Origin: Minisyncoccota bacterium
GTDB taxonomy: Bacteria; Patescibacteriota; Minisyncoccia; UBA6257; JAGOQP01
Assembly: GCA_041674185.1 (NCBI GenBank)
Contig: JBAYWE010000004.1
Location: 186 to 64,185, forward strand
Length of the DNA: 64,000 nucleotides
Direction: 5' to 3'
Shown piece by piece: positions 255-51,951 of the stretch. The first letter of the stretch is position 1. Each line of letters starts with the position of its first letter. The translations under genes were made by a program, and so were the position numbers. The notes beneath the pieces were generated by a model. That model made no database searches and was not told the origin of the DNA. It saw only the letters and a program-made list of their open reading frames with translations.

Positions 255-1739
255 TTATACTTTATGTTTCTTTTTCATTTCTCCCTCAATCCCCGCTTCA
301 CATTCCTGCGCTCGTTCTTTTGATTTTATATATAATTTTTTAATTTCATCTTCATTGAGAAGATTTAATTCCTTTGCTCGTGCAATAAGTAATTCTGTGA
401 CATTTTTTTGAGGATCATCTAAAATATCTTCCAATAAGATACCTAAAATCCACCCCAGTCGCGGACTTGGTTTTAAACGCAGAGCTTCCATAATTTGAGT
501 CCCATCGACCGCAAGCATTTTGGGAGAAATAGGATCGCGACGTACTTTATCAATCATAAATAAAAGATGGCGTAATTTATACGGCACTGCTTTGGGCACC
601 CCCGATCCAATTCGATCTGCTTCTCTAATTTTTATAAGATCATCTACATTTTCAATCCCCACCCGATTAATAAATCTCCGTACCCCCGCTTCGCTCACTT
701 CATCAACGTTATAATAAAATAGATGATTTTTGACTAAATGCGTTACATAAGAAACAATCTGTTTTGAAAAACGTAACCGATTTAATATCCCCCGTGTCAT
801 ATGCGCTCCCACATATTCATGTTTATAAAATGTGCTGTTCGGGCCATCTCCTCCTTTCGTGCGTGGCTTTCCCACATCATGAAGTAATGCACCCAATCTA
901 ATTTCAAGTGCATAATTTTTATCAATCGCATACGCGAGTGCGCGAAGGTTGTGTTCCCACACGGTATAAATATGATGCTTGTTTTGTCCTACACCCACAC
1001 CCTCCAATAACTCAGGAACGATATACTCTAGTAATCCATATCGATACAACAATTCTACTCCCCAGGCACCCTGAGGAGTCATGAGTATTTTTACAAATTC
1101 ATCACGAATACGTTCTTGCGATATATTTTTTAGTGAAGGAGCGAGTGTTTGTATTGCTTCTTGGGTTTCTTTTTCTATAACCCATCCCGTTCCGAGCTGA
1201 CAAGAAAACCGGATTGCACGCAACATACGGAGCGCATCTTCATGAAATCGTTCCTGTGCATCCCCCACTGCACGAACTATTTTCTTTTCTAAATCTTTTT
1301 GTCCTGCATATAAATCAATAATTTTATATTCTGGCTTTTCATCATGAGTAATAAATTCAATCGCCATTGCATTAACTGTGAAATCTCTCCGCGATAAATC
1401 TTCTCCCACGGTGGTGACAAAGGTAACAGTCTCAGGATGACGAGAATCTACGTATCCCGATTCTGTTCTAAAGGTGGTGACTTCAATTATCTTCACCTTT
1501 TCATTAGATGTTTTTATCTTCACCCCCACGGTTCCAAATTTATTTTCGTATACACTTTCAGGAAATATTTCTTGGATCTGCTCTGGAGTAGCGCTTGTGG
1601 TGATATCCCAATCTTTTGGCTCTATCCCTAAAATTATATCTCGCACACACCCCCCCACGATATATGCCAAAAAACCTCTCTCTTGGAGAGTTCGTATAAT
1701 ATCTCGCACTTCAAAAGGAACAACTATATTGATTTGCAT
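255..1739 (-). CDS. cca: CCA-adding tRNA nucleotidyltransferase / poly(A) polymerase family with C-terminal HD domain
   Basis: N-terminal GGCVRD nucleotidyltransferase motif and a downstream HD-domain region (LHDVGK). I chose the internal ATG (MQINIVVPF) as start so the CDS does not run into the adjacent tRNA. Confidence 0.8.
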   Translation of the reverse strand: MQINIVVPFEVRDIIRTLQERGFLAYIVGGCVRDIILGIEPKDWDITTSATPEQIQEIFPESVYENKFGTVGVKIKTSNEKVKIIEVTTFRTESGYVDSRHPETVTFVTTVGEDLSRRDFTVNAMAIEFITHDEKPEYKIIDLYAGQKDLEKKIVRAVGDAQERFHEDALRMLRAIRFSCQLGTGWVIEKETQEAIQTLAPSLKNISQERIRDEFVKILMTPQGAWGVELLYRYGLLEYIVPELLEGVGVGQNKHHIYTVWEHNLRALAYAIDKNYALEIRLGALLHDVGKPRTKGGDGPNSTFYKHEYVGAHMTRGILNRLRFSKQIVSYVTHLVKNHLFYYNVDEVSEAGVRRFINRVGIENVDDLIKIREADRIGSGVPKAVPYKLRHLLFMIDKVRRDPISPKMLAVDGTQIMEALRLKPSPRLGWILGILLEDILDDPQKNVTELLIARAKELNLLNEDEIKKLYIKSKERAQECEAGIEGEMKKKHKV

Positions 1740-1779
1740 ATCGTATATAGTATACACTGAATCCACATAGATTTTCCAC

Positions 1780-1852
1780 GCACCCGTAGTGAAATGGATT
1801 ATCACAACTGCCTTCGAAGCAGTTATTGGGGGTTCGAATCCCTCCGGGTGTA
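1780..1852 (+). tRNA. tRNA-Arg (anticodon TCG)
   Basis: Cloverleaf folded by hand: acceptor GCACCCG/CGGGTGT, D-stem GTGA/TCAC, anticodon stem ACTGC/GCAGT with loop CTTCGAA, T-loop TTCGAAT, discriminator A. No encoded CCA. Confidence 0.8.
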
Positions 1853-1860
1853 CAATTTAA

Positions 1861-1885
1861 AAAACCGTCTATATGGCGGTTTTTA
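1861..1885 (+). terminator. Rho-independent terminator hairpin after tRNA-Arg (AACCGTC-TATAT-GGCGGTT followed by a T run)
   Basis: Stem-loop flanked by an A run upstream and T run downstream, possibly bidirectional. Confidence 0.55.
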
Positions 1886-2023
1886 AATTAAAAACCCGAG
1901 AACGCAAACTGCTTTGCGTTCGTGAGGATTCGAACGACGGAGTGTATGCGAACAGCTGTGAGCATAACGAGTCGGTGGTCAACCCGAGTTGAGCGACGGC
2001 GAAACGAGAGGTGAGACCGAATC

Positions 2024-2043
2024 CCTGCCTACCGGCAGGCAGG
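2024..2043. repeat. 20-bp near-palindrome CCTGCCTACCGGCAGGCAGG (copy 1 of 4)
   Basis: Identical or near-identical 20-mers at 2024, 35556, 51376 and 51966. Here it interrupts the duplicated tRNA-Arg 3' end. Confidence 0.9.
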
Positions 2044-2140
2044 CCTCCGGGTGTACAACTATAAAAATACATCATTTTCTTAAATGGTGTGTTTTTATAG
2101 TTAGCATATCGTAGATTCGAAGGGTATTCGAAAAGTATCC

Positions 2141-2176
2141 AAAAGAAATAAGAAAAGAGCCGCTCGTGAGCGGCTC
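2141..2176 (-). terminator. Rho-independent terminator of the 2193..3041 gene
   Basis: Hairpin GAGCCGC-TCGTGA-GCGGCTC followed on the minus strand by TTTTCTTATTTC. Confidence 0.6.
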
Positions 2177-2192
2177 AATTTCAATGTGCAAT

Positions 2193-3041
2193 TTAGAGGA
2201 AAAAAGTAACTTTCGCAACAACCAATTTTTCAGTGAAGTTGTAGAACAACTTCAGGTGACTGTTGGTCGAATATTGATATGCCGCACCAACCATAGTGCG
2301 AACAGTATTTGTAGTACTTGAATTTGCCTCAAAATCTCCTTGTAACCATACGCTAATCTTATCAGTAAGCTTAGCCTGGTTCTGCGCGTAGAATTCCACA
2401 GGAGCGCTAGAGCTTGTTGGCCGAGAGACAATCCCTCCTTCTACATTCAATAGTGAATGAAAAGCACTTTTTGCCATCAATCCAAATCCTTTTTTGTTTC
2501 CCCGCGTCTGCAAGAAATATCCTATATGAGTGCCTTCGCTTAATGTTACATCAACCGATGCGGAAACATTTCTATTTCCATCACAGTCAAATACTGAAAT
2601 TCTCGCCGTTACTTTTTTATCATTAAATACATCGTCATACTGCATTGAGATACCATCATCCAGCACAGTAAATGAATTTACTGATGACGCATATGCAGTC
2701 TGCGACATCATATGGGGTGCTGGAAATAAATACCAGATTGGGTCTAAGAAACGACCAGCGGTAACTGTGAAATTACCGAATGTTTTTGACACATTCGCTA
2801 GTTGAATCTTACCACTTGAGAAATCGTGGCGAAATTGTACCTTAATTTGATCATTTGAAAGATCTACATGCAAACGCATATAATCAAATTTAAACTGATC
2901 CTTACTTACATCCTGTGTCGGAATATTCATTCCAGCAAAGACATGAGCTTCGGCATTTATACCATTCAGATTAAATGTTTGCGCAGAAATAAATGATGTA
3001 GATAAAATAACAAACAAAGCAACTAATACTAACTTTTTCAT
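2193..3041 (-). CDS. Secreted protein with signal peptide and C-terminal aromatic residue; possible outer-membrane beta-barrel; function unknown
   Basis: Start at MKKLVLVALF, which has an AAGAGGA Shine-Dalgarno sequence upstream. Cleavable signal peptide, alternating amphipathic pattern, C-terminal FFL. Confidence 0.5.
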   Translation of the reverse strand: MKKLVLVALFVILSTSFISAQTFNLNGINAEAHVFAGMNIPTQDVSKDQFKFDYMRLHVDLSNDQIKVQFRHDFSSGKIQLANVSKTFGNFTVTAGRFLDPIWYLFPAPHMMSQTAYASSVNSFTVLDDGISMQYDDVFNDKKVTARISVFDCDGNRNVSASVDVTLSEGTHIGYFLQTRGNKKGFGLMAKSAFHSLLNVEGGIVSRPTSSSAPVEFYAQNQAKLTDKISVWLQGDFEANSSTTNTVRTMVGAAYQYSTNSHLKLFYNFTEKLVVAKVTFFL

Positions 3042-3266
3042 TTTTTTCCTCTTATATAATGTGATAGTTGATTGAGACCACCCACACGATGAGCTCAATT
3101 AACTATCACACGCTTTTCAATGTTCTATGAGTGTATTATATCATAATAAGTCATAAAAGTCAATATATACAAAAATGAATAAAATAGCCCTAAAAACAAA
3201 CCCACCCCCATAAACTGTTGAAAAAATGAAAAGAATATGAGACAATCTTCCTTAAGATAAGAACAA

Positions 3267-3339
3267 GCGCCCATAGCTCAGCTGGTAGAGCAGCTCCCTC
3301 TTAAGGAGATGGTCCAAGGTCCGAATCCTTGTGGGCGCA
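3267..3339 (+). tRNA. tRNA-Lys (anticodon CTT)
   Basis: Acceptor GCGCCCA/TGGGCGC, D-stem GCTC/GAGC, anticodon loop CTCTTAA, T-loop TCCGAAT, discriminator A. No encoded CCA. Confidence 0.7.
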
Positions 3340-3367
3340 CAACATATATTCTAAATAGAATATATGT

Positions 3368-3439
3368 GCGGGTATCGTATAGTGGCTATTATGCGTCCTT
3401 GCCAAGGACGAGACGGCGGTCCGATTCCGCTTACCCGCT
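3368..3439 (+). tRNA. tRNA-Gly (anticodon GCC)
   Basis: Acceptor GCGGGTA/TACCCGC, anticodon stem CGTCC/GGACG with loop TTGCCAA, discriminator U73 typical of Gly. The T-loop is the unusual TCCGATT. No encoded CCA. Confidence 0.75.
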
Positions 3440-3638
3440 CAAGATGAAAAATTACCCTTCTGTTTAAAGAGGGGTGATTTTTTATTTATGTATGCGGGTA
3501 AAACAAATAAACTGCTTTATTTGTGTGCGAAATCGGACGACGGAGCATATGCGAGTAGCAACGAGCATGGTGAGTCGGTGGTTAGACAAACTTTTGCGAC
3601 GGCAAAAGTTTAGTCGAGACCGATTCCGCTTACCCGCT
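3440..3638 (+). repeat. tRNA-3'-end-linked structured element, copy B (attached to tRNA-Gly)
   Basis: A terminator-like hairpin comes first. The left arm GCGGGTAA [ACAAATAAA-CTGC-TTTATTTGT] GT GCGAAATCGGAC equals the reverse complement of the tRNA-Gly 3' end with the CTGC hairpin inserted after nt 8. The core is homologous to copy A (CGACGGAGCATATGCGA..GAGCATGGTGAGTCGGTGGT..GCGACGGCAAAAG). The right arm GACCGATTCCGCTTACCCGCT is a direct copy of the tRNA-Gly 3' end. Confidence 0.75.
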
Positions 3639-3701
3639 CAAGATATAAAAATATAAAACACCCCCAAAGGGGGTGTTTTATATTTTCCTTATTTTTTATC
3701 A

Positions 3702-4439
3702 TTACCACGAAGGAAGTGCATTTCGTATATTTCGCTCTTCTGTGTCTAGCTCAAGAACCGCATCTCCTTGTATAGAGATTTTTCTAAACGTACTGTATAA
3801 AGACGTTACCTGTTCCTGTATATCCGCAAGTCCTTTTTCTATTTTATCAAGAGATACAAAAACAACTTCTTCCCCCTCTTGGTTTTGTAACGACTCGTGC
3901 AGAGTAGTAATAATATCCTGTAATCTTTTTAAAGCGCTTGTTGCGTGTGCAAAAACTATTTCAATAGAACTCGTATCTCTCCCCTGATTCTTTGCGGATA
4001 CGATTTTATTTTGCACATTCTGATAACGAGAAATAATGAGTTGCTGAGTTGTCTTCTCAAAATACATCACGTATGCAGAAAGTATCTTGTGTCTGAGAAT
4101 AGTATCTTCAGTTGTACGATAGGTATAAATAACCCCGGCAAGTGTTCGTAGTTCATCGACTGTCTGTGCTGATTCAATATCATTTAGATATCCTGTAAAA
4201 GCAACAATACTTTCATTTGATTTATCGAGGAGTTCATCTTGAATATCTTGTGTAAATATATCGGTACGTTTCTGAATGATGCGTTGCACTGCATTCGCTC
4301 GTTGTAAAAATGTTTGTACTGCGTTTGTTAAAAATTTCTTTTGAGTAATTATTGCCGATTCTGCTTGTACCGACACGGGAACCCCCACTCCCACCATGAG
4401 CGCCATACACACGAGTACTATGTATCGTTTTATATTCAT
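3702..4439 (-). CDS. Secreted hypothetical protein (signal peptide, coiled-coil rich)
   Basis: Complete ORF with N-terminal signal peptide MNIKRYIVLVCMALMVGVGVPVSVQA. No recognisable domain. Confidence 0.5.
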   Translation of the reverse strand: MNIKRYIVLVCMALMVGVGVPVSVQAESAIITQKKFLTNAVQTFLQRANAVQRIIQKRTDIFTQDIQDELLDKSNESIVAFTGYLNDIESAQTVDELRTLAGVIYTYRTTEDTILRHKILSAYVMYFEKTTQQLIISRYQNVQNKIVSAKNQGRDTSSIEIVFAHATSALKRLQDIITTLHESLQNQEGEEVVFVSLDKIEKGLADIQEQVTSLYSTFRKISIQGDAVLELDTEERNIRNALPSW

Positions 4440-9746: not shown

Positions 9747-11624
9747 CTATTGTTTTGTAGATGTCGCAACTCTATTTTGATAATACCACTCTAACACATC
9801 TCGAGCTACGGGAACCGCATTTAAACTTCCCTGTTGCGCATCTTCTATAAGCACCAATAAAGCAATAGATGGATTTGGTACAGGGGCATACGCAACAACG
9901 AATGCATTTTCTTTTGTATTATTTTGAATCTGAGCGCTCCCTGTTTTTCCGGCAATATTCATAGGAATAGTATTGAGTATGTGCGCTGTTCCATATTCTT
10001 GTTTTACTGTAGCCAACATTCCTAACTCGATTTCATTAAAATTATTCTGATCTTTTGCCACAATTTCATCAAATGAAGGGGTTGCTTGATATATAATATT
10101 ACCCCCACTTGTTTTTGAGGTTTGCACAATAAAGGGACGCGGTAATTTTCCCTTATTCGCAATTCCACAAATATATCGAATGAGCTCTAGGGGGGTAATA
10201 CGAAGATCCCCCTGCCCAATAGATACGTTATAGGTATCTCCTATGCGCCATATTTGACCTGTACGAGCTTCTTTCTCTTCTGCGTTCGGTAATACTCCCG
10301 CAACTTCACCAGGCAAGTCAATCCCTGTTTTTTTATCCAATTGAAAGGCTTTCCAGTACTTGTTTAATAATTCTATACCTAACCCTCTTTGTTCCTGAAA
10401 CCCGCCCCCTACTTCATAAAAATATACATTACTTGATCGCGCTAATGCTGAATATAGATTTACCCACCCCTGAGGTTTCCAATCTAAAAATCGTGATGGT
10501 TTTGATGGTGTATATGGATTGGGAAGCTCGATATATCCCGGTGAATAAATTGATTTCAATGGATCAATAACTCCCTCTTCTAAAGCACCAAACCCCACCA
10601 GCGGCTTTATAGTTGACCCAGGACTATACACCCCCGCAACAGCTCTATTGAATGTTGGGTTTGTGGGATCAGAAAATAATTTCGCCGATAACGCATTATT
10701 ATCAAAATCAGGAAAATTAATAAGAGACAATATCTCTCCTGTTTGTGGATTTATAGCAATACCCACTCCCGATGTTCTATTTAAATCCACCAGTCTCTTC
10801 TTCATGACTGTATAGAATTCCTTCTGTAATCCTGCGTCAATCGTGGTATACATATGAGCTCCCCCTATAGGCGCAGTGGTACTCTCGGGACCAATAGCAT
10901 TTCCTCGTGCATCACGAAATTGTATGCGGGCCCCATTTATTCCTCGCAATAATTCGTCGTATTGAATTTCTAATCCCATCTTTCCAATCTCATCATTCAA
11001 ACGAAGATTACTATCACGAGCAAGATCCCCCTCACTTACTAAACCAGTAAAACCGATAAGATGAGCGAAGGCTGGTGCGTCTATATATTCTCGCGAGAAT
11101 CCATCTTCTATGGCAAGTGCTTTGTTTTGTAATTTTTTAAGATCAATAACTGACTCCAATGATACGTTTCTAAATAAAGGGTAGTAAGCCTGACGTTCTA
11201 GATCGGCCTTAATAATTTTTTCTTTTATCTGGGTAATATCAAGAGGGAGAATACTATTAATTTGTTCGAGTGTGTTCTGAATTGCCTCGGGCGTCTTTAA
11301 TATTTCTGATAAATTAATAGATACTGAAAAACTTGGTTTATTTGTTACCAGGGGAACTCCATATCTATCGTAAATAATTCCTCGAGGAGCATTCAGGATG
11401 GTTCCCTGCCCCGCATTCGCCAGAGACCTACTCTGATATTCCGCACCATGAATTCCCCCAAAGAAAATGATCCGTACTCCTACACCACATACTATAATTC
11501 CTACCACAATAATAAATACACGAAATAATTTTTCAGAAAGAGGGCGCTCAACAACACCCAATTCATCGGAAAAATCATCAAGAGCTATATCTTCTAAGAA
11601 AAAATCTTTTTTACCCATACCCAC
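9747..11624 (-). CDS. mrdA: Penicillin-binding protein 2 (class B transpeptidase, elongasome)
   Basis: N-terminal TM. Motifs STIK (SxxK), SSN (SxN) and KTGSA (KTG). Located immediately downstream of mreBCD. Confidence 0.8.
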   Translation of the reverse strand: MGMGKKDFFLEDIALDDFSDELGVVERPLSEKLFRVFIIVVGIIVCGVGVRIIFFGGIHGAEYQSRSLANAGQGTILNAPRGIIYDRYGVPLVTNKPSFSVSINLSEILKTPEAIQNTLEQINSILPLDITQIKEKIIKADLERQAYYPLFRNVSLESVIDLKKLQNKALAIEDGFSREYIDAPAFAHLIGFTGLVSEGDLARDSNLRLNDEIGKMGLEIQYDELLRGINGARIQFRDARGNAIGPESTTAPIGGAHMYTTIDAGLQKEFYTVMKKRLVDLNRTSGVGIAINPQTGEILSLINFPDFDNNALSAKLFSDPTNPTFNRAVAGVYSPGSTIKPLVGFGALEEGVIDPLKSIYSPGYIELPNPYTPSKPSRFLDWKPQGWVNLYSALARSSNVYFYEVGGGFQEQRGLGIELLNKYWKAFQLDKKTGIDLPGEVAGVLPNAEEKEARTGQIWRIGDTYNVSIGQGDLRITPLELIRYICGIANKGKLPRPFIVQTSKTSGGNIIYQATPSFDEIVAKDQNNFNEIELGMLATVKQEYGTAHILNTIPMNIAGKTGSAQIQNNTKENAFVVAYAPVPNPSIALLVLIEDAQQGSLNAVPVARDVLEWYYQNRVATSTKQ

Positions 11625-35494: not shown

Positions 35495-35719
35495 CGCAAA
35501 CATTAAATCCTAATCCACCGGGAATTTCACATCGCACTTCGTGCTCTTTAGAAACCCTGCCTACCGGTAGGCAGGCCTCGGTTTCTAACATCCTTCGAAT
35601 TGTTTTCCTACACGGGGAACTACAAGTTCCCCGACCCCCTCCGATTCAAATCCCGCGCGAGATCTTTCATCATATAAAATAAAAATATCCCTACTAGCGT
35701 AAGGATATTTTTATTTGTG
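35495..35719 (-). repeat. tRNA-3'-end-linked element, divergent copy E (attached to tRNA-Glu)
   Basis: Read on the minus strand after tRNA-Glu. A terminator hairpin (AAAATATCC...GGATATTTT) comes first. CGGGATTTGAA follows, which is the reverse complement of the tRNA-Glu T-arm. The 20-bp palindrome sits inside the inverted repeats TTAGAAACC/GGTTTCTAA. The degenerate duplicate of the tRNA-Glu 3' end (AAATTCCCGGTGG) closes the copy. Confidence 0.5.
35556..35575. repeat. 20-bp perfect palindrome CCTGCCTACCGGTAGGCAGG (copy 2 of 4)
   Basis: Exact palindrome flanked by the extra inverted repeats TTAGAAACC/GGTTTCTAA. Confidence 0.9.
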
Positions 35720-43499: not shown

Positions 43500-46400
43500 C
43501 TATACAGGTAAATATTCACGATAAACTCGTACCGTTTCTTGATAAATTGATTCTATTAAACGTTCTGCCTGTATCTGTTCCACAAAACCTTTTTGGATTA
43601 AAAGTAATCTTACATTCTGACGAATACGTGCTTTTATAGTCTCATTATTTGTCCAATCAATTGCAAGATCGCGGCGTATTCGCTTTGTGAGATCTTTTAC
43701 AAATTCTTTTATATCAATCCCTGCATTTTTAAGATCTGGATCTGCAATAAGAGTATCATAAAAAACAATCTCTTCAGAAGACAAGCCAAGATTTACACTT
43801 TCTTGATCTAACTTTTTTATTTCATCCGCTATCTCAAGGAGGCGTTTTATAATCTCTGCCGAGCTAATAACATTGTTCTCATATTTTTCTATAAGATCAG
43901 TAAGAAGAGTGATCATTGTTTCATATCTTGCTTTATTTTTTCTCATTCGTGCAACAATCTCTTTATTAAGTAATTTACGAATCACGTCGACTGCAAAGTT
44001 CTTAAACTTCACCTTCTTTATTTCTTCGCTAAATCGCGGATCAAAAATAGAAATGGTTTCTTTTTCTCCATCTTCATTTGCAAATAAATCTATAACTCCT
44101 TCTGCCTGTATTGTGTCCTGAATTAAATTGCGAATAGCACTTTCGGTCTCTTCAGGAAATATAGCATGAGGCACAACTGTTTGTTTATTAATTGCACCAC
44201 GAATTGCTTGAAAAAACTGTATATCAGTAGCGATGTTCATTGCTTCTTCTCCGGGCATAACTAGCGCGTGTAATTTTGAGAGTTTTGAAACTGCACCTAT
44301 ATATTTCATCTTTCTATCATCCGAGAGAATCCCATGATCTGAGATTACTTCGTTGATACTAGCTTGAAATAATTCCACCAGTTCAATGCCTTTCTTCTTT
44401 TTCCATTCTGAAAAAGAAACATTTCCAAAGAAATCACTTGTTGTCTGATAAAGTTTTTTCATCTCTAAAATAACCTCATCAAGAGGGATGAGTGCGTTCC
44501 GCTGAACATCCGAATCATAAATGGCAAGCGCCTTTTTTAGGTTATCTGCGACACCGATATAATCAACAATAAGTCCACCTGGTTTGTCTTTATAAACACG
44601 ATTTACACGGGCAATTGCCTGCATAAGCCCATGATTCTTGAGTGGTTTATCAAGATACATGGTATGTAGGTTTGGGACATCAAATCCAGTAAGCCACATA
44701 TCACATACGATAGCGATTTTTAGTGGATCATTTGTTTTCCTAAAATGTTTTTCTAACTTCTTTACGTCTCGTTCAGTTTGAATGTCTGATGCAAAATCTT
44801 CACTTTTTGAAATAACTACTGCACACTCTGGAGCCCCTGGTATTTTTTTAATTGCATTATACATTTGAACCGCAATAGAACGGCTCATGGTAACCACCAT
44901 CGCTTTACCTTCAATAGGACGAATAGTGTAGTGAGCAACTATATCTTTTGCAATTTGTTCAATACGGCTTGGTGCACCAACTACTTTTTCTAATACTGCC
45001 CATTCTTTTTGAGCTCGCATTCTTTCGTCAATCACAATCTCACCCAAAAGATCATCGAGTTTACTATCAATAAATCTATCCGCTAAATGAAGTGGAATAA
45101 GACGTCCTTCATAGAAAATTGGAACCGTCGCACCATCTTTTACTGCCTGTCCGATTTTATATGAACTCACAATATCTCCAAATACACGAACTGTATCGTG
45201 ATCATTATGAGAAATGGGGGTTCCTGTTACACCCAAAAAGCTCACGTGAGGAAGTGCGCGACGGACGTTTCCTGCAAGCATACTATATTGAGTGCGATGT
45301 GCCTCATCAGTAAGTACAATAATATTTTCTCTCTCAGTAAGAACATTGTGTGCATCTGGATCTTCTTGAAATTTTTGGATTGTAGTAAAAATAAGCTCAC
45401 TTCCCAGATGAGAGAGTTTATCTTTTAGATCTTTTATTGTCGTGGCTCGTTTTGCGAGAGTACCATATCCTGTACGACTAAATGTTTTAAATAACTGATC
45501 ATCAAGATCTTCGCGATCAGTAAGAAACACATATGCAGGACTTTTTAGTTCCGGAATACTTTTTGTCTTATTTACATAAAAAACCATAGAGAGTGACTTA
45601 CCAGATCCTTGCGTGTGCCAAAAAACACCGATCTTTCGATCTTGATTACCAAGCACTGAATGAATTGTGCTTTCAATAGTTTTGTTTACTCCATAATATT
45701 GGTGATAAAGTGCCATCTTCTTTGTATAAGTCACCGCATCTCCATCACTATCCGCCTCAAAGATGGTAAAGTTTTGAATAACATCAAGTAAGCGGACTTT
45801 ATCAAAAAGACCTTTTGTTAATACCTCAAGTTGAGTGGTGTCTCTTGGTGAATCATTTTCTAATTCAATTCCCTTCCATGTTCCGTATCTTTCCCACGAT
45901 GAAGATATTGTTCCGTGTCGAGCGTCAGTTAAATCACTTAGACAAATAATTTGGTTATATAAAAATAGTTTTGGAATTTCTTTTTTGTAATATTCAATAT
46001 CTCGATATGCTTGTCCAATTGATGCTTGTTCACGAGTGGGGCTTTTAAGTTCAAACACTCCAAGGGGGATACCATTTACAAATAAAACAGCATCTAGGCG
46101 ACATATATTATCAATCCCCTGAACAGTGAATTGATTCACTATAAGAAACTCATTTGCCTCTGGGTTTGAGAAATTAATAAGCTTTACCAATTCCGTTTTT
46201 TCTTCTCCGTCTTCTTTCCATGTTTTTTTCACTCCTTCGGTAATATTAAAATATATCTCTCTATTGCCCAGCATAAGATCGGGGTTGTGGAAACTAGAAA
46301 TATCATTCACTACCTGTTCTGCCTGCATTTGGGGAAGTTGTGGATTTAAACGACGAACAGCACCAAGGAGATGATTTTTTAGCACAACCTCACGGAAGTT

Positions 46401-46523
46401 TTCACGTTCCGCATTGGGTTGTCCTGGATTTATCTCTGGACCATATAAGTACTCATAACCCTGGCTTTGTAGCCATTGGATAAGAGATTGTTCTGTTAAG
46501 TTATTTTCGTTAAGGGGGTTCAT
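43500..46523 (-). CDS. hsdR: Type I restriction enzyme R subunit (HsdR)
   Basis: 1007 aa. N-terminal nuclease region, SF2 helicase motifs including DEAH (VLTDEAHRTQ). Last gene of the operon. Confidence 0.85.
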   Translation of the reverse strand: MNPLNENNLTEQSLIQWLQSQGYEYLYGPEINPGQPNAERENFREVVLKNHLLGAVRRLNPQLPQMQAEQVVNDISSFHNPDLMLGNREIYFNITEGVKKTWKEDGEEKTELVKLINFSNPEANEFLIVNQFTVQGIDNICRLDAVLFVNGIPLGVFELKSPTREQASIGQAYRDIEYYKKEIPKLFLYNQIICLSDLTDARHGTISSSWERYGTWKGIELENDSPRDTTQLEVLTKGLFDKVRLLDVIQNFTIFEADSDGDAVTYTKKMALYHQYYGVNKTIESTIHSVLGNQDRKIGVFWHTQGSGKSLSMVFYVNKTKSIPELKSPAYVFLTDREDLDDQLFKTFSRTGYGTLAKRATTIKDLKDKLSHLGSELIFTTIQKFQEDPDAHNVLTERENIIVLTDEAHRTQYSMLAGNVRRALPHVSFLGVTGTPISHNDHDTVRVFGDIVSSYKIGQAVKDGATVPIFYEGRLIPLHLADRFIDSKLDDLLGEIVIDERMRAQKEWAVLEKVVGAPSRIEQIAKDIVAHYTIRPIEGKAMVVTMSRSIAVQMYNAIKKIPGAPECAVVISKSEDFASDIQTERDVKKLEKHFRKTNDPLKIAIVCDMWLTGFDVPNLHTMYLDKPLKNHGLMQAIARVNRVYKDKPGGLIVDYIGVADNLKKALAIYDSDVQRNALIPLDEVILEMKKLYQTTSDFFGNVSFSEWKKKKGIELVELFQASINEVISDHGILSDDRKMKYIGAVSKLSKLHALVMPGEEAMNIATDIQFFQAIRGAINKQTVVPHAIFPEETESAIRNLIQDTIQAEGVIDLFANEDGEKETISIFDPRFSEEIKKVKFKNFAVDVIRKLLNKEIVARMRKNKARYETMITLLTDLIEKYENNVISSAEIIKRLLEIADEIKKLDQESVNLGLSSEEIVFYDTLIADPDLKNAGIDIKEFVKDLTKRIRRDLAIDWTNNETIKARIRQNVRLLLIQKGFVEQIQAERLIESIYQETVRVYREYLPV

Positions 46524-47383
46524 GATGTGTGTATTCTTGAAACCATATCTTTTACATCAGACATCATTTCTTTTATATCTGATAAAACAGGAATTGTCGA
46601 TTTATTCCCCACAATTTCTTTTGTCTCATTTTGTCTTATATTTGTCATCGGCGATGAATAAAGTTTACCAATCGCATCTAGTATAAAATCAAGCTTTTTC
46701 TTATATTCATCATCGTCTTTATCAGAGAATAGATTCTCAACTATCTCCTTGTAAGCTTCTAGGGAACGGGCGATAGAGGCCTTAAACTCATATTCTTCAA
46801 TTAATTTTTCTCCTCGTGAATATTGTCCGCTGATAAAGATTTCAAAAAATATAATTGGAGACGTAGCTGCTAGTTTAACTAAAAAATTTATCTCAAATAT
46901 ATTTCCGCCATTAGATGTCTGCCAGATAACTATTCCAGCAACCGATAAAAGAAGAGCCATACTAGTACCGAATAACCACCAAAACCAACTCTTATTACTT
47001 AATTTTAATCCGTCTCTAACCTTATCGAATGAATTGGAAAGTTTTTCATTAGAAATAGTTCCCAATTGTTGTAGTGAAAGACTTTGGATTTCGTCACTTT
47101 TTGTTTTAAGTTCATCTACTACTTTCTTGGTTTCTTCGGTTAAGGTTTGCTGTTCCTTGGTGGTCTCTTTTAAAGTAGCAATTTCCCCAATCAAGTTTTC
47201 TAGCTCTTCCTTCTTTTTAGGAATCGCATCTATATTTTCTTTTTGTGCTTGTACTTCAGCAATTAATGTATCTATTACTTGTTTTTGGGTGATAAAATTT
47301 TGTACTAAAGCGTTAAGATCTCCTAGCGCCCTTAGGTTTTGATCTATATCTGCTAACTTTTGTTGTACTTCTTTTGTTTTCAT
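46520..47383 (-). CDS. Coiled-coil / two-TM protein embedded between hsdS and hsdR; function unknown
   Basis: About 130 aa of N-terminal coiled coil, two TM helices (WFWWLFGTSMALLLSVAGIVIW and SPIIFFEIFISG), then a C-terminal soluble domain. Overlaps the hsdR start by 4 nt. Confidence 0.5.
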   Translation of the reverse strand: MKTKEVQQKLADIDQNLRALGDLNALVQNFITQKQVIDTLIAEVQAQKENIDAIPKKKEELENLIGEIATLKETTKEQQTLTEETKKVVDELKTKSDEIQSLSLQQLGTISNEKLSNSFDKVRDGLKLSNKSWFWWLFGTSMALLLSVAGIVIWQTSNGGNIFEINFLVKLAATSPIIFFEIFISGQYSRGEKLIEEYEFKASIARSLEAYKEIVENLFSDKDDDEYKKKLDFILDAIGKLYSSPMTNIRQNETKEIVGNKSTIPVLSDIKEMMSDVKDMVSRIHTS

Positions 47384-47387
47384 AAAT

Positions 47388-48701
47388 TTAAATTAATTTT
47401 GCTAATAATTGATCTCTGGATTGTTTTAATTTTTGATTTTCGAGGAGAGATTCTTTTATAAAATTAAACATCGGTTTTATAGTTCCATTAAAACTATAAG
47501 TAATGTTTTCTAGAGGTATTAACATTTTATAATTTTCTATTAATTGCTTATTAATATGTTGCTGGGCACCACCAGATGCTCCTGAAATTATATCTAAAAT
47601 ATTATTTTTGATACATAAATATATATATTCATTTAAAATATTATTTTCGTCATATATACCAACAACTGATTGATTAGCTGTTGATTCAATCTCAAGACGA
47701 CTGACTTGCCCAAGTGTGGCTCCAGTTATAGCAAGGAGGGTTGTCCCTGAATTCATTATGCTTGCATTAGATTTTTTAAGACCTGCTTCTGATATATACT
47801 CGGTTGCTTTAATAATTCTGAGGTTATTTATTTCGCCAGAATTGATCCATGGAATGCTCCCTCCCCAGAATTCTTTTTTATCTCTCGATGGGGTTCCTCC
47901 TAGTGTAACGGTTGCTAATCGTGATATTTTTTTCATTTCCCACCCTTCAGGAATTTTTCCCATTTCGCTATCAATCATTTTTACTTTTTCATAACCTGGA
48001 AAATGAAAGTTTACAAACCATTCATTAAAAATAGTTTGTGCTGTGGTTTCAAGATTTTTAATTATCTTATTGTTGTTTTCAATTTTCTCATCATATGCAC
48101 TTAAAATTTCTGAAATCTTTTTTTGGATTGAGAGGTTTGGAATATTTATCTCGTAATCACGCAACTGTTCTAAAGATACATTTTTTATAGTACTACCAGA
48201 AGCATTATTTGTTATATGTTTTTTAAACCTATTATCTAATAGTACATAATAAAAATAATTTAAATCAAAACCATCACTAATATTGATATAGGAAACACTT
48301 TTACCTAGTATACATTTCTCGTTCTTGTATTTTGCTAAATTACCGATTGTTCCATTAATAGAAAGCAAAAGGGTTCTTTCAGTTAAATCTTTTTTGTGTT
48401 TAATGTATTCTGACTCATTTACTTTTTTTGTATCTTTTTTTATTGAAACATAACCATTATCTAAATTATTTCCATTAATAAAATAATATTCCCCATTGTC
48501 GTCATATACTGGAGTCCCATGTAAACCATCACCAATTCTACTGGTAACATCTATTAGTTTATAAGTGGCCCTCGGTATCTTTTCTATTTGTTTCAGTAAA
48601 TTGCTCATATTTTTGATCTGTGGATAACTCTTGATTTTGGTGGTGGTGAATGTTATACTCCTTTCATACCTGCCCGAGGTCAATTCGGGATAACTTTCCA
48701 C
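47388..48701 (-). CDS. hsdS: Type I restriction-modification specificity subunit (HsdS)
   Basis: Two target-recognition domains separated by a conserved central repeat, ending with the conserved C-terminal coiled region. 437 aa. Confidence 0.75.
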   Translation of the reverse strand: MESYPELTSGRYERSITFTTTKIKSYPQIKNMSNLLKQIEKIPRATYKLIDVTSRIGDGLHGTPVYDDNGEYYFINGNNLDNGYVSIKKDTKKVNESEYIKHKKDLTERTLLLSINGTIGNLAKYKNEKCILGKSVSYINISDGFDLNYFYYVLLDNRFKKHITNNASGSTIKNVSLEQLRDYEINIPNLSIQKKISEILSAYDEKIENNNKIIKNLETTAQTIFNEWFVNFHFPGYEKVKMIDSEMGKIPEGWEMKKISRLATVTLGGTPSRDKKEFWGGSIPWINSGEINNLRIIKATEYISEAGLKKSNASIMNSGTTLLAITGATLGQVSRLEIESTANQSVVGIYDENNILNEYIYLCIKNNILDIISGASGGAQQHINKQLIENYKMLIPLENITYSFNGTIKPMFNFIKESLLENQKLKQSRDQLLAKLI

Positions 48702-48712
48702 AAAAACCTGAC

Positions 48713-49378
48713 CTAGTCAGGTTTTTGTTTTTCTACCTTGGCAATATGCTTTTTAATATTCTGTGCATTTATGACTAAATCAGCCGACTCTCTGAATTTT
48801 GTCAAAATATATCCACCCTTCACTATAATCACTTTTTTACCTTTTCGTTTTAAGTAATTATTTAAATACACAAAATCAGCATCTCCAGAGAAAATACAGA
48901 AAGTATTATAGTGTTCAAGCATCTTTAGCGCATCTACAGAAATCTCTACATCAAAATTTGATTTTCTGATTTCTATAAATTTTTTGCCATCTATATCTGT
49001 TTTAACATATTTATCAGGAATATATTCGCCCGTCTCAAAATAATGCCTAATTTTTTGAATGTCTTTAGTCATTACATCTCTTTTGCCAAAAACTTTTCGC
49101 ATAACATAGGTAAAACTGAGAGACTTTTGATTTTTAGGATTTTCTCCATAGTAAATTCTCGCCCTCTCACTAAAAATATCCAAAAATGATTTAAGTTTTT
49201 CTAAGTCTATTGATAACTTCTCATCGGGAGCGAGGAGTTTATTCTCCCAGTCTTGATTGTCATTTTGAAACCACTTATTTACGTTTGAGAAATCGACAAA
49301 AGTGAAAATCTTCCCGTAATCTTCGGTGATCTGTAGCTCATCTTTGATAAACTTCTTTTTTAGGTCTTGCAAATCCAT
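48713..49378 (-). CDS. NYN-domain (LabA/PIN-like) predicted ribonuclease embedded between hsdM and hsdS
   Basis: NYN signature segments (IFTFVDFSNV..., FDVEISVDA..., CIFSGDADFVYL..., KKVIIV). Confidence 0.55.
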   Translation of the reverse strand: MDLQDLKKKFIKDELQITEDYGKIFTFVDFSNVNKWFQNDNQDWENKLLAPDEKLSIDLEKLKSFLDIFSERARIYYGENPKNQKSLSFTYVMRKVFGKRDVMTKDIQKIRHYFETGEYIPDKYVKTDIDGKKFIEIRKSNFDVEISVDALKMLEHYNTFCIFSGDADFVYLNNYLKRKGKKVIIVKGGYILTKFRESADLVINAQNIKKHIAKVEKQKPD

Positions 49379-49382
49379 ATAT

Positions 49383-51182
49383 TTAAAATCCTAACTCTTT
49401 TAGATTTTTCTCAATATCTTTTTCTAATTCGCGGCCTTTTGTGAATGCTCCCCGCAATTCTTCTGAAAATTTTATCATCTTTTCTTCAAATGTAACTCCA
49501 TCATCCTCAACGTCTGCAAGTCCAACATAGCGTCCAGGAGTTAATGTATATCCATTTTTCTGTATTTCTTTTAAAGTTGCTGATTTACAAAAACCTGAAA
49601 TATTTTTATATTCCCCAACCTCTTGTTCACCCCGCCACGCACGAACGGTGTCCGCAATTTTTTGAATTTGTTCTTTATTGAAAATCACTTGTTTACGAGA
49701 AATTTGTTCAAAAGTATCTCGTGCATCAATGAATAATGTTTCTCCAGTGCGTTTACGAAAACGATCACCATTTTTGTTTCTAGCCAAAAACCAAAGGGAT
49801 ACAGGAAGCGAAACATTATAGAAAAGTTTTGATGGACATGAAATAATAACGTCAACCATATCTGCTTCAATAAGTTTTTGTCTTAGTTCACCCTCTTTAC
49901 CGGATACAGCAAGGGCACCATTTGGCATAACGAATCCAGCATTACCATTTGGTGCTAAATGGTGAGCAAAATGTTGTACCCACATGAAATTCGCATTGCC
50001 ACTCGGTGGAGTGCCCAATGTTATGCGCGGATCATTATCGGCAAGTTTGGATGGTTCCCAATCTGCATTAAATGGAGGATTAGCAATAACAAAATCTGCC
50101 TGCAAATGAGGGAATTTGTCTTGATAATAAGTATTTCCTAATTCAATTTTTCCAGATAGACCACGAATTGCAAGGTTCATTTTACAAAGTCGCAAGGTTG
50201 TTGGATTGCTTTCTTGTCCGTTAATTGCAAGTCGTGACGAATCCTGATGATGATCTCGCAAGAACTCACCCATGGATACAAACATTCCTCCACTTCCACA
50301 TGCGGGATCAAGTACTCGAGCATTTTCATATGGTTCAAGAATCTCTACTAAAAGTTTAACAATAGATCGTGGGGTAAAAAATTCTCCTCCACGCTTACCT
50401 TCGGATGAAGCAAATTGACCAAGAAAATATTCATAGATACGTCCGAGGATATCCTTCTCTCTATCAAAGTTGTGATCAAACGAAATACGAGAAAAGATAT
50501 TTATAAGTTCACCAATTACTGCATGATCAAGAGTTGTTCTTGTATAAATTTTAGGAAGCACTCCTTCAAGTTCTGTTAAGTTATCACTCTCAATATAATC
50601 CATTGCCTTATCAAGAATCTGTCCAATATCTGATTGCATTGTTTTTGTCTGCAAATATTCCCAACGAGATTTTTCGGGGACATAAAATACTCCAGCGCTT
50701 TTATAAAAATCTTTTGTCTCAAGAATTTGAGCTCGAGCTTTTTCATCTGCAACATAAAATTCTTCATTTTTAGGATCATGAGTGAGCTCATCAAGTTTCT
50801 CGCGTCTTTTATAGAATGCATCTGAAATATATTTTAAGAAGAGAAGACCAAGTACAATATTTTTATACTCGGAAACATCAATGTTACCACGAAGCTTATC
50901 TGCTGCGGCCCAAAGTTCTTTTTCAAAATCAAGATCTTTATGATGATTTTTTTCCAAAACCTTCTTTGTTGTCTTCTTTTGTTCGCCTCTAATGCGTTCT
51001 TGGAGTTCGGGGGGGAGAGTTGACCTAGGAATGAGGTAGTTGCGACCCATTTTCTGAGCCGGTATCTTTCCTTCGGAAATCTGTTTATGCACCGCAATAC
51101 GGCTTATCCCGAGCATTTTTGCCATCTCTGCAGAGGTTATGAACTGTGATTTGTGTGTTTCCATGATCTTATAATAGCACAA
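49383..51182 (-). CDS. hsdM: Type I restriction-modification methyltransferase subunit (HsdM) with N-terminal helix-turn-helix extension
   Basis: N-terminal excisionase/MerR-like HTH (SAEMAKMLGISRIAVHKQISEGKIPAQKMGRNYLIP), HsdM N-domain, SAM-binding motif I (LDPACGSGGM), motif IV NPPF. Confidence 0.85.
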   Translation of the reverse strand: MCYYKIMETHKSQFITSAEMAKMLGISRIAVHKQISEGKIPAQKMGRNYLIPRSTLPPELQERIRGEQKKTTKKVLEKNHHKDLDFEKELWAAADKLRGNIDVSEYKNIVLGLLFLKYISDAFYKRREKLDELTHDPKNEEFYVADEKARAQILETKDFYKSAGVFYVPEKSRWEYLQTKTMQSDIGQILDKAMDYIESDNLTELEGVLPKIYTRTTLDHAVIGELINIFSRISFDHNFDREKDILGRIYEYFLGQFASSEGKRGGEFFTPRSIVKLLVEILEPYENARVLDPACGSGGMFVSMGEFLRDHHQDSSRLAINGQESNPTTLRLCKMNLAIRGLSGKIELGNTYYQDKFPHLQADFVIANPPFNADWEPSKLADNDPRITLGTPPSGNANFMWVQHFAHHLAPNGNAGFVMPNGALAVSGKEGELRQKLIEADMVDVIISCPSKLFYNVSLPVSLWFLARNKNGDRFRKRTGETLFIDARDTFEQISRKQVIFNKEQIQKIADTVRAWRGEQEVGEYKNISGFCKSATLKEIQKNGYTLTPGRYVGLADVEDDGVTFEEKMIKFSEELRGAFTKGRELEKDIEKNLKELGF

Positions 51183-51375
51183 ATTAATTTGGAATGCAAG
51201 TTAACATAGGTTAACCACACTATGGTAAAAGATCACTGTTATATGTGTATATTATTCAATACTCAATAATGATTGTTCTATAAACATAGGAGGAGAGTTC
51301 GCCCGCGAGTCTTTTTGTTGCAACAAAAAGCTCTGGGCACCAACTCGCTGTACTCACAGCTGTTCGCACATGCTC

Positions 51376-51395
51376 CCTGCCTACCGGCAGGCAGG
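51376..51395. repeat. 20-bp near-palindrome CCTGCCTACCGGCAGGCAGG (copy 3 of 4)
   Basis: Lies between copy C of the tRNA-linked element and an extra partial core copy (51318..51370). Confidence 0.9.
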
Positions 51396-51421
51396 CGTCA
51401 TTCGAATCATCTAAATAGAAA

Positions 51422-51937: not shown

Positions 51938-51951
51938 AGTTATATGTAATT

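What the first reader, a model, noticed from the sequence alone, without database searches (positions are those of the whole stretch)
3440..3638. Copy B is the cleanest demonstration of the arm architecture, including a predicted three-way junction
**What the sequence shows.**
- The reverse complement of the tRNA-Gly 3' end is GCGGGTAAGCGGAATCGGACC.
- The element's left arm reads GCGGGTAA [a ACAAATAAA CTGC TTTATTTGT gt] GCGAAATCGGACG.
- That is the same 21-mer with one A/G change and a 24-nt hairpin inserted after position 8.
- The right arm is GACCGATTCCGCTTACCCGCT.

**Inference.** The left arm can therefore form about 17 bp of continuous duplex with either the tRNA-Gly 3' end or the element's own right arm, with the CTGC hairpin branching out as a three-way junction. 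The tRNA-Gly itself has an unusual T-loop (TCCGATT instead of TTCGAAT), and the element arm follows that unusual sequence, so the element tracks its host tRNA rather than a generic consensus.
Basis: seen in the sequence. Interest (0 to 1): 0.8.

Follow-up and report, generated by a model that had tools for sequence, protein, structure and literature searches.

The report
Mobile element that mimics tRNA ends
Copy B is an intact member of an apparently undescribed family of ~200-base insertions in Paceibacterota (CPR bacteria) that sit just behind tRNA genes, carry arms matched to whichever tRNA they sit behind, and fold into a conserved single-stranded structure; they come and go between related genomes, so they behave as small mobile elements.

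Summary
At 3494-3638 a left arm antisense to the tRNA-Gly 3' end is split by a 9-bp CTGC hairpin, followed by an ~80-nt core and a right arm that repeats the tRNA 3' end.

It is one of three close copies in the window, plus diverged relatives. A pattern scan and a covariance model found at least 14 more in other Paceibacterota assemblies. Every one lies downstream of a tRNA gene on the tRNA strand, next to ten different tRNA species.

- **Fold:** 31 of 40 consensus pairs show compensatory changes, and 95.5% of cells are paired versus 74% in shuffles.
- **Arm tracking:** the left arm follows each host tRNA across positions 53-64, including T-loop variants.
- **Main correction:** the left arm's best partner is the tRNA's own 3' half. 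tRNA position 53 through "terminator 1" to the left arm forms one ~120-nt palindrome (z = -10.4), with the CTGC hairpin as a side branch.
- **Mobility:** syntenic relatives have empty sites, for example tRNA-Gly in L016.
- **Reverse influence:** host tRNAs carry element-like nucleotides, such as the tRNA-Lys T loop TTCAAGT→TCCGAAT.

Best reading: a non-autonomous, tRNA-3'-end-specific mobile element. The mobilising enzyme is unknown, and so is whether the folded strand acts as RNA or ssDNA. Nothing matched in Rfam 15, phage or plasmid records, or the papers searched.

The parts
3368..3440 (+). Host tRNA-Gly(GCC). T stem 3415-3419/3427-3431, T loop TCCGATT 3420-3426, acceptor 3' strand 3432-3438, discriminator 3439.
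   Evidence: ARAGORN; Rfam tRNA model, 54 bits. Identical in L016 and L019.
3421..3445 (+). Direct repeat copy 1: tRNA position 55 to 6 nt past the discriminator (CCGATTCCGCTTACCCGCTCAAGAT).
   Evidence: (D12)
3446..3493 (+). Trailer plus "terminator 1". This is the tip of the long palindrome: a G+C-rich stem with A and T runs. It is absent from the empty site in L016.
3419..3538 (+). ~120-nt palindrome: tRNA position 53 to the 3' end, trailer and hairpin tip, mirrored by the left arm. The CTGC hairpin forms a side branch.
   Evidence: -59.6 kcal/mol, z = -10.4
3494..3501 (+). Left arm part 1, GCGGGTAA. Antisense of tRNA positions 65-72.
3503..3524 (+). Branch hairpin: 9-bp stem, loop CTGC.
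   Evidence: helix 1 (8 of 9 pairs with compensatory changes)
3527..3538 (+). Left arm part 2, GCGAAATCGGAC. Antisense of tRNA positions 53-64, 11 of 12 matching, including C55.
3538..3577 (+). Core helices P3 and P4.
- P3: CGAC 3538-3541 with GUCG 3574-3577.
- P4 hairpin: 3545-3571, with two tandem G-A/A-G internal loops and loop AGCA.
   Evidence: helices 3-5
3580..3621 (+). Core helices P5a and P5.
- P5a: GGU 3580-3582 with ACC 3619-3621.
- P5 hairpin: 3585-3615, loop GACG.
   Evidence: helices 6-7; GGU/ACC swaps with CCC/GGG in other copies
3618..3638 (+). Right arm. It repeats the tRNA 3' end from the T loop to the discriminator.
3620..3644 (+). Direct repeat copy 2.
3648..3686 (+). Terminator 2. 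It is the ancestral tRNA-Gly terminator, homologous to the one directly after the tRNA in L016.
1892..2058 (+). Sibling copy A, after tRNA-Arg (1780-1853). Its right arm is split by a 20-nt palindrome at 2024-2043.
   Evidence: 148.7 bits
51279..51449 (-). Sibling copy Ser2, second in tandem after tRNA-Ser. Its arms are decayed and it carries a 20-nt palindrome at 51376-51395.
   Evidence: 57.4 bits
51417..51566 (-). Related "type II" element directly after tRNA-Ser. It has the same arms and CTGC hairpin but a different core.
35511..35660 (-). Diverged arm-bearing insert after tRNA-Glu. It has T-arm antisense and sense pieces and carries a 20-nt palindrome at 35556-35575.

Best explanation
Copy B is an intact member of a family of small (~200 nt), non-coding, non-autonomous mobile elements. 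They are specialised for the 3' end of tRNA genes in Paceibacterota.

**Shown**
- The inserted unit consists of a hairpin-tipped terminator, an antisense copy of the tRNA's 3' end (positions 73→53) interrupted by a branch hairpin, and a conserved ~80-nt core of two hairpins.
- It lies between two direct copies of the tRNA segment that runs from the T loop to a few bases past the 3' end. The tRNA therefore stays intact and receives a new terminator.
- The family's fold is conserved by compensatory changes and is better on the tRNA-sense strand.
- Sites are filled or empty in related genomes.
- Identical interiors are joined to different tRNA-specific arms.

**Inferred**
- The element moves through a single-stranded folded form, either ssDNA or an RNA copy.
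- Its arms form a duplex that mimics or pairs with the T-arm/acceptor part of the target tRNA gene. An enzyme encoded elsewhere recognises that form.
- Insertion occurs in the T loop at position 55-57 and regenerates the tRNA 3' end.
- After a jump to a new tRNA, the arms are re-templated from the local tRNA. This would happen by gene conversion between the direct repeats and within the palindrome.
- The same process sometimes writes element nucleotides, such as C55, back into the tRNA.
For: **Family and location**
- All 17 type-I matches lie 20-70 nt downstream of a tRNA gene on the same strand, or downstream of another copy in tandem. The tRNAs are Arg(TCG), Arg(GCG), Gly (3 anticodons), Ser, Trp, Tyr, Lys, Asn and Ile.
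- They come from independent MAGs and metagenomes.

**Structure**
- 31 of 40 consensus pairs have compensatory changes.
- 95.5% of cells are paired, against 73.9% in shuffles (0 of 500 reach the observed value) and 33-44% with slid partners.
- G·U cells number 24 against 8 A·C cells, favouring the tRNA-sense strand.

**Mobility**
- tRNA-Gly: filled in the window, empty in syntenic L016 with an identical tRNA.
- tRNA-Arg: filled in the window and L016, empty in L015 and L019.
- tRNA-Ile: filled in L019, empty in L016.
- tRNA-Lys: filled in L019 only.
- Tandem arrays occur in L007, L008 and at the window's tRNA-Ser. Decayed remnants follow tRNA-Cys, lie at window 2112-2134, and occur in L014.

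**Arms**
- The left arm matches each tRNA's positions 53-64.
- The direct repeat starts at position 55-57 and runs 1-15 nt past the discriminator.
- The palindromes have z = -8 to -12.
- The same hairpin module, AGTGAGCAAACTGCTTTGCTCACGT, is joined to Gly, Arg and Lys arms.

**Effects on the host tRNA**
- The tRNA-Lys T loop is converted, and tRNA-Arg is a mosaic.

**Non-autonomy**
- No ORF fits in the element.
- No recombinase, transposase or RT domain was found in the window ORFs scanned.
Against: - No mobilising enzyme has been identified.
- No excised or circular form has been seen.
- No two copies in one genome are identical enough to show a recent jump.
- The strong conservation of unpaired junction purines and the tandem G-A motifs looks more like a functional RNA than a bare recombination site.
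- The element has no recognisable promoter, so an RNA form is not shown either.
- Presence/absence comparisons are between genomes whose CCA-adding enzymes are 76-89% identical. Loss rather than gain cannot be excluded site by site.
- The sample of copies was seeded with one sequence pattern, so the family's true range is unknown.
Confidence: 0.62

Rival explanations
1. A host-serving structured small RNA family.
- Each copy would be a tRNA-end mimic or partner RNA: acceptor-like stem plus extended T stem, with the core in place of the T loop.
- It would be transcribed after the tRNA terminator and act on tRNA metabolism, for example as a decoy or regulator for an enzyme that reads the acceptor/T arm.
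- Gene duplication next to the cognate tRNA would explain the location.
For: - Very strong covariation and conserved unpaired purines.
- The strand asymmetry of G·U favours the tRNA-sense strand.
- G·U pairs are kept in the P1 stem of L005 and L014.
- The discriminator base is retained after the right arm.
Against: - Occupancy is patchy among close relatives, and copies occur as decayed remnants and tandem arrays.
- There is no promoter-like site.
- Neither ARAGORN nor the Rfam tRNA model recognises it as tRNA-like.
- The left arm matches the tRNA better than it matches its own right arm, and the match extends into the gene's trailer.
- Some copies lack the P1 partner altogether (L013, L011).
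Confidence: 0.2
2. Leftover att-site scars of larger integrative elements (prophages or islands) that integrated into tRNA 3' ends by a tyrosine integrase and were later deleted down to ~200 nt.
For: - The direct repeat of the tRNA 3' end starts in the T loop, and the tRNA is regenerated. This is the classic signature of tRNA-targeted integration.
- A type I restriction-modification island lies beyond the tRNA-Ser array.
Against: - Random deletion remnants would not share a constant size, a covarying fold and an antisense arm across more than 17 copies in many genomes.
- No integrase fragment is adjacent.
Confidence: 0.08
3. A by-product of break repair at tRNA genes cut by the homing endonucleases that live next to them (GIY-YIG cassettes).
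- Fold-back priming at the terminator hairpin would create the inverted copy of the tRNA end.
- The core would simply be carried along by repair synthesis.
For: - GIY-YIG genes sit inside partial 5' duplications of tRNA-Ser (window) and tRNA-Ile (L016, L017, L019).
- The palindrome is centred on the terminator loop.
- Flanking tRNA sequence is co-converted.
Against: - The branch hairpin always sits at the same point (position 64/65) and belongs to the conserved interior. Simple fold-back copying would not produce that.
- The core is under structural selection.
- No link between GIY-YIG presence and element presence was tested.
Confidence: 0.07

Closest known systems
Integrative elements that target tRNA gene 3' ends (tyrosine-integrase att sites), and their non-autonomous att-flanked derivatives such as CIMEs
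   Same: - Insertion at the T loop to 3' end of a tRNA gene.
- The insert is flanked by direct repeats of that segment.
- The tRNA is rebuilt.
   Different: - Only ~200 nt, with no integrase.
- Carries an antisense copy of the target and a conserved, covarying fold.
- One family occupies many different tRNA species, with arms changed to match each.
MITEs and REPINs (small non-autonomous repeats mobilised in trans)
   Same: - Small, non-coding and multi-copy.
- Ends can pair.
- Occur in intergenic positions with a terminator-like hairpin.
- Decay and turnover are evident.
   Different: - The "inverted repeats" are not family-constant; they copy the local tRNA.
- The repeat at the target is 13-32 nt, not 2-10 nt.
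- Strict tRNA-end specificity.
- Internal structure is conserved by covariation.
Folded single-strand recombination sites: integron attC, CTX-phage attP hairpin, parvovirus-type T-shaped terminal hairpins
   Same: - An imperfect palindrome, strand-specific, whose folded stem imitates a duplex target.
- A branched (three-way) hairpin.
- Structure is conserved more than sequence in the arms.
   Different: - No integron integrase, cassette ORF or phage genes nearby.
- The target is a tRNA gene.
- A second, sequence-conserved structured core is attached.
- None of these mechanisms has been demonstrated here.
Transposons that encode their own guide RNA (IS110 bridge RNA; IS200/IS605 TnpB/IscB omega RNA) and group II intron EBS-IBS pairing
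   Same: - A structured scaffold is joined to segments complementary or identical to the insertion target.
- Arms can be exchanged while the scaffold is kept.
   Different: - No recombinase, TnpB or RT ORF in or beside the element.
- No Rfam match.
- The arms lie at the termini and are complementary to each other, rather than sitting in internal loops.
- Whether an RNA is made is unknown.
tRNA-like domains of other RNAs (tmRNA, bacterial Y-RNA-like YrlA)
   Same: 5' and 3' ends pair into an acceptor-like stem followed by a discriminator base, with a large insert replacing part of the tRNA body.
   Different: - No T loop or D arm.
- Not detected by tRNA or tmRNA models.
- The acceptor sequence differs in each copy and equals that of the neighbouring tRNA.

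Membership tests
tRNA / tmRNA | Cloverleaf or tRNA-like domain recognised by ARAGORN or Rfam RF00005/tmRNA models | tested here: not met
   Only the true tRNAs are called; nothing is called at 3494-3638 even at E ≤ 10.
Any Rfam 15 RNA family (ribozymes, group I/II introns, HEARO/omega RNA, Y RNA and others) | Covariance-model match | tested here: not met
   No relevant hit in 1700-3800 at E ≤ 10, and none in the whole window at gathering threshold.
MITE | Small, non-coding, multi-copy | tested here: met
   About 200 nt with no ORF. There are 3 type-I copies plus relatives in 64 kb, and 14 more copies elsewhere.
MITE | Family-constant terminal inverted repeats derived from a parent IS | tested here: not met
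   Arm sequences differ with each host tRNA.
MITE | Short target-site duplication (2-10 bp) | tested here: not met
   Exact direct repeats are 13-32 nt and cover the T loop to past the tRNA end.
tRNA-targeting integrative element (tyrosine integrase) | Direct repeats of the tRNA 3' segment flank the insert, and the tRNA is regenerated | tested here: met
   3421-3445 = 3620-3644. The tRNA is identical to the one at the empty site.
tRNA-targeting integrative element (tyrosine integrase) | Integrase gene inside the element | tested here: not met
   The insert is ~200 nt. No integrase domain was found in the neighbouring or other window ORFs scanned.
Integron attC site | Imperfect palindrome folding on one strand, with structure conserved over sequence | tested here: inconclusive
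   Palindrome and strand bias are present. However, a sequence-conserved core is attached, and the R''/R' boxes are matched only as ..AAC/GTT..
Integron attC site | Follows a cassette ORF in an array, with IntI or attI nearby | tested here: not met
   The element follows tRNA genes. No integrase was found in the window.
Guide-RNA transposons (IS110 bridge RNA, IS200/605 omega RNA) | Recombinase or TnpB/IscB ORF adjacent to the RNA | tested here: not met
   No such ORF lies beside any of the copies examined.
Guide-RNA transposons (IS110 bridge RNA, IS200/605 omega RNA) | A transcribed RNA that pairs with target DNA during transposition | not testable with these tools
   Complementarity to the target is shown. 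Transcription and function are not.
Structured non-coding RNA (generic) | Secondary structure supported by covariation on one strand | tested here: met
   31 of 40 pairs are compensatory, 0 of 500 shuffles reach the observed values, and G·U outnumbers A·C 24 to 8. The same result would be expected for a folded ssDNA.

The most novel reading that the evidence does not exclude
The element is a programmable, nucleic-acid-guided mobile element.
- Its folded transcript or single strand uses the left arm as a ~20-nt guide that pairs across the insertion point (tRNA positions 53-73 plus trailer).
- The conserved core acts as the scaffold for a trans-acting enzyme, possibly a host enzyme.
- Changing the arms retargets it to any tRNA gene.
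- As a side effect it rewrites the T loops and acceptor stems of its host tRNAs.
Probability: 0.15. Interest if true: 0.9.

Novelty: new variant of a known kind. Interest (0 to 1): 0.74.

Why it matters
- **A new way to occupy a safe site.** If this is a mobile element, a very small non-coding parasite colonises the safest site in a reduced genome, the end of an essential tRNA gene. It does so by carrying a sequence-matched mimic of that end, and it can be re-fitted to many tRNAs.
- **A possible source of odd CPR tRNA features.** The element appears to feed nucleotides back into tRNA genes: the C55 T loops and a mosaic tRNA-Arg. That would make it a driver of tRNA sequence evolution in CPR bacteria and could explain unusual tRNA features seen there.
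- **A tractable RNA or ssDNA motif.** The conserved core with 31 covarying pairs is a well-defined motif of unknown partner. Identifying the protein that reads it could reveal a new site-specific, possibly guide-dependent, insertion mechanism.

Tried and rejected
**Searches that found nothing relevant**
- Rfam at gathering threshold and at E ≤ 10 returned only tRNAs.
- The viral contig scan for the core pattern returned 0 hits.
- blastn against phage and plasmid records gave no match.
- Six literature searches found no description. The nearest paper, on group I introns in Patescibacteria tRNA genes (PMC13011429), concerns anticodon-loop introns and is unrelated. One 2026 preprint on mining non-coding elements could not be opened.
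- An exact look-up of the neighbouring protein 3702-4439 was not on record.
- Pfam scans of 56 ORFs, in the window and beside other copies, found no integrase, transposase, RT, HUH or TnpB domain. A 194-aa ORF in L003 (4507-5091) looked like a LAGLIDADG endonuclease by eye but matched only HTH models.
- Split copies, with core halves separated by an ORF, do not occur in the fetched loci.

**Readings considered and rejected**
- Primer-binding site for mature tRNA: the complementarity continues into the gene's trailer, not into CCA.
- H/ACA-type guide: no unpaired target nucleotides at the junction.
- Group II intron domain V: similarity by eye only, the AGC triad is not conserved, and Rfam gives no hit.
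- Hammerhead and other small ribozymes: no core motifs and no Rfam hit.

**Chance pattern hits discarded**
- L002, L004, L009 and L012 lie in G+C-rich coding DNA.

**A comparison that was not fair**
- The cofold energy comparison of left arm versus tRNA versus right arm is biased by the T-arm hairpin of the free tRNA fragment. It is not used as evidence.

Full report
**What is at the coordinates**

The window is a 38% G+C chromosome piece of a Candidatus Paceibacterota MAG. tRNA-Gly(GCC) lies at 3368-3440. Downstream of it, in order:
- A 6-nt trailer, CAAGAT.
- A hairpin with A and T runs, "terminator 1", ending at about 3493.
- GCGGGTAA, 3494-3501.
- A 9-bp hairpin with loop CTGC, 3503-3524.
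- GCGAAATCGGAC, 3527-3538.
- An ~80-nt core.
- GACCGATTCCGCTTACCCGCT, 3618-3638.
- CAAGAT again.
- A second terminator, 3648-3686.

The right arm matches the tRNA 3' end with one mismatch; chance expectation is 0.00. The exact repeat is 25 nt, 3421-3445 = 3620-3644.

**Predicted fold**

The energy is -56.9 kcal/mol with z = -4.8.
- Copy A, behind tRNA-Arg, folds the same way.
- When the tRNA is included, the left arm pairs with the tRNA's own 3' half instead.
- The stretch from tRNA position 53 through the trailer and "terminator 1" to the end of the left arm is one nearly continuous ~120-nt palindrome. The CTGC hairpin is a side branch. The energy is -59.6 kcal/mol with z = -10.4.
- That pairing wins in the full-length fold, both as RNA and as DNA.
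- Five other copies give the same picture, with z from -8.3 to -11.8.

"Terminator 1" is therefore the tip of a palindrome that belongs to the insert, not an independent feature.

**It is a family**

- A scan of public genomes and metagenomes with a core pattern returned 14 loci. Ten are real and all are Paceibacterota/CPR. Four are chance hits in G+C-rich coding DNA.
- A covariance model built from 15 copies found 17 type-I matches across the window and the loci fetched by then, and more in the syntenic loci.
- Every one lies just downstream of a tRNA gene, or of another copy in tandem, on the tRNA's strand.
- The host tRNAs are Arg(TCG), Arg(GCG), Gly (three anticodons), Ser, Trp, Tyr, Lys, Asn and Ile.
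- The window holds three type-I copies: A at 1892-2058, B, and Ser2 at 51279-51449 on the minus strand.
- The window also holds relatives with the same arms and hairpin but another core: one behind tRNA-Ser (51417-1566, minus strand), a diverged one behind tRNA-Glu, and a short remnant behind tRNA-Cys.

**The fold is under selection**

- 31 of the 40 consensus pairs keep pairing through changes on both sides.
- 95.5% of cells are paired. Column shuffles give 73.9% (0 of 500 reach the observed value), and sliding the partner gives 33-44%.
- Examples: CGAC/GUCG becomes CAAC/GUUG or CGCC/GGCG; GGU/ACC becomes CCC/GGG; the 2-bp tip AC/GU becomes GU/AC.
- Several unpaired purines and two tandem G-A/A-G loops are nearly invariant.
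- G·U cells outnumber A·C cells 24 to 8, so the tRNA-sense strand is the one that folds.

This fits an RNA or a folded single-stranded DNA. The data cannot tell which. No promoter-like site precedes the element.

**The arms follow the tRNA**

- Left arm part 2 is the exact or near-exact antisense of positions 53-64 of the neighbouring tRNA in all 15 aligned copies, at 9-12 of 12 positions.
- It follows the T-loop variants CGAAT, CAAAT, CAAGT and CGATT. In B and in the L019 tRNA-Ile copy it follows C55.
- Part 1 matches the cognate acceptor 3' strand better than non-cognate ones: 0.76 paired against 0.575 ± 0.135.
- In L005, L013 and L014 the complementarity continues into the gene's trailer rather than CCA.
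- The right arm equals the tRNA only from position 55-57 onward. Its first one or two bases are used by core helix P5a.
- The same branch hairpin, AGTGAGCAAACTGCTTTGCTCACGT, is joined to Gly arms (L006, L011), Arg arms (L008) and Lys arms (L014).

From that last point I infer that the arms are replaced by a templated process rather than by slow point mutation.

**It comes and goes**

The CCA-adding enzyme next to copy A gave syntenic relatives:

| tRNA | Filled | Empty or other |
|---|---|---|
| Gly(GCC) | window | L016 empty; L019 has a different insert |
| Arg(TCG) | window, L016 | L015, L019 empty |
| Ile | L019 | L016 empty |
| Lys(CTT) | L019 | window, L016 empty |

- At L016, the identical tRNA-Gly is followed directly by the terminator that corresponds to the window's terminator 2.
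- Tandem arrays and decayed copies are common.

**The tRNA is affected too**

- tRNA-Lys(CTT) is identical in the three genomes except for its T loop. The loop is TTCAAGT in L016 and the element-like TCCGAAT in L019 (element present) and in the window (no element now).
- The window's tRNA-Arg shares its D arm with its close relatives L015 and L019. It shares its acceptor stem and T arm with the more distant, element-bearing L016 and L010.
- I infer gene conversion between the repeats. The unusual C55 of tRNA-Gly may then be a scar rather than something the element tracks. It is also present at the empty L016 site, so the direction is open for this tRNA.

**Interpretation**

- The best-supported reading is a non-autonomous mobile element specialised for tRNA 3' ends. 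It rebuilds the tRNA end and supplies a terminator.
- Its single-stranded fold and target-matched arms are probably what a trans-acting enzyme recognises.
- No such enzyme was found. Pfam scans of window ORFs and of neighbours of other copies show housekeeping genes, a type I restriction system, and small GIY-YIG nucleases.
- The GIY-YIG genes themselves sit inside 5' partial duplications of tRNA genes. tRNA genes in this clade are therefore attacked from both ends. A role for these nucleases in moving the 3' elements is speculation.

**Comparison with known systems and novelty**

- It resembles tRNA-targeted integrative elements in the repeats and the regenerated tRNA. It resembles MITEs and REPINs in size and non-autonomy. 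It resembles folded single-strand sites such as attC or the CTX attP hairpin in being a strand-specific branched palindrome that mimics a duplex. It resembles guide-carrying transposons in having a scaffold plus exchangeable target-matched arms.
- It fails at least one defining test of each.
- Nothing matched in Rfam 15, phage records, plasmid records or the paper library.
- I rate it a new variant of a known kind, a small non-autonomous insertion element. There is a minority chance that it is a guide-programmed system.

Noticed in passing
window 2024-2043, 35556-35575, 51376-51395, 51966-51985; also L010 (three copies), L008, L001 (18-nt form), L016 (with nested extra DNA): - A 20-nt palindrome, CCTGCCTRCCGGYAGGCAGG, is inserted cleanly with no target duplication.
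- It occurs only inside these elements or inside duplicated tRNA pieces: in the right arm after ..AATC, in the CTGC loop, after GACG of the core, and in the D loop of pseudo-5' tRNA parts.
- There are four copies in the window against 0.02 expected by chance.
- Three of the four have the same asymmetric centre on the + strand, whatever the host element's orientation.
- It looks like a separate tiny mobile insert.
   Followed up: partly
window 51692-51937 (-), with tRNA-Ser 51599-51686 and its 5' duplicate around 51950-52005; L016 16634-16978; L019 10214-10598: - An 81-89-aa GIY-YIG nuclease gene lies between a duplicated 5' part of a tRNA gene and the intact tRNA.
- The duplicated part is interrupted by hairpin inserts in the D loop.
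- This occurs at tRNA-Ser in the window and at tRNA-Ile in relatives.
- It looks like a homing-endonuclease cassette that targets the 5' half of tRNA genes.
   Followed up: partly
window 3267-3340 (tRNA-Lys CTT) versus L016 6399-6472 and L019 1335-1408: - The T loop is TCCGAAT in the window and L019 but TTCAAGT in L016. The other 66 nt are identical.
- L019 has an element behind this tRNA; the window has none.
- This is a probable conversion scar from an earlier element.
   Followed up: partly
window 1780-1853 (tRNA-Arg TCG) versus L015 1640-1712, L019 3021-3093, L016 7886-7960, L010 244-318: The window's tRNA-Arg is a mosaic. Its D arm resembles that of its closest relatives, which have empty sites. 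Its acceptor stem and T arm resemble those of more distant genomes that carry the element.
   Followed up: partly
window 2059-2134: Behind copy A lies a second long hairpin (2059-2105), followed by GTAGATTCGAAGGGTATTCGAA. This looks like the remnant of an older element's left arm, implying successive insertions at tRNA-Arg.
   Followed up: no
L003 about 4343-4360, L007 about 2860, L016 about 7640, L019 about 10850: A shared tail motif, ACTTCG...GCTTCG.., follows the right arm at different tRNAs in different genomes. It may be the end of yet another tRNA-flank element.
   Followed up: no
L011 about 340-415, L019 about 10960-11032, L001 1025-1096: Short 5' partial duplications of tRNA-Ala, tRNA-Val and tRNA-Ser sit just upstream of the intact genes, separated by 30-60 nt hairpin-containing spacers and with no ORF.
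   Followed up: no
window 43500-51182 (-): A complete type I restriction-modification system (HsdR, HsdS, HsdM), plus NYN-domain and unknown genes, lies directly beyond the tRNA-Ser element array. It is possibly an island integrated at that tRNA.
   Followed up: no
L019 935-1088: Behind tRNA-Gly(GCC) in L019 there is a 3' partial duplicate of the tRNA, running from T-stem position 50 onward. Its T loop is split by a 35-nt hairpin insert, and it has no core. This is a different event at the same site as copy B.
   Followed up: no
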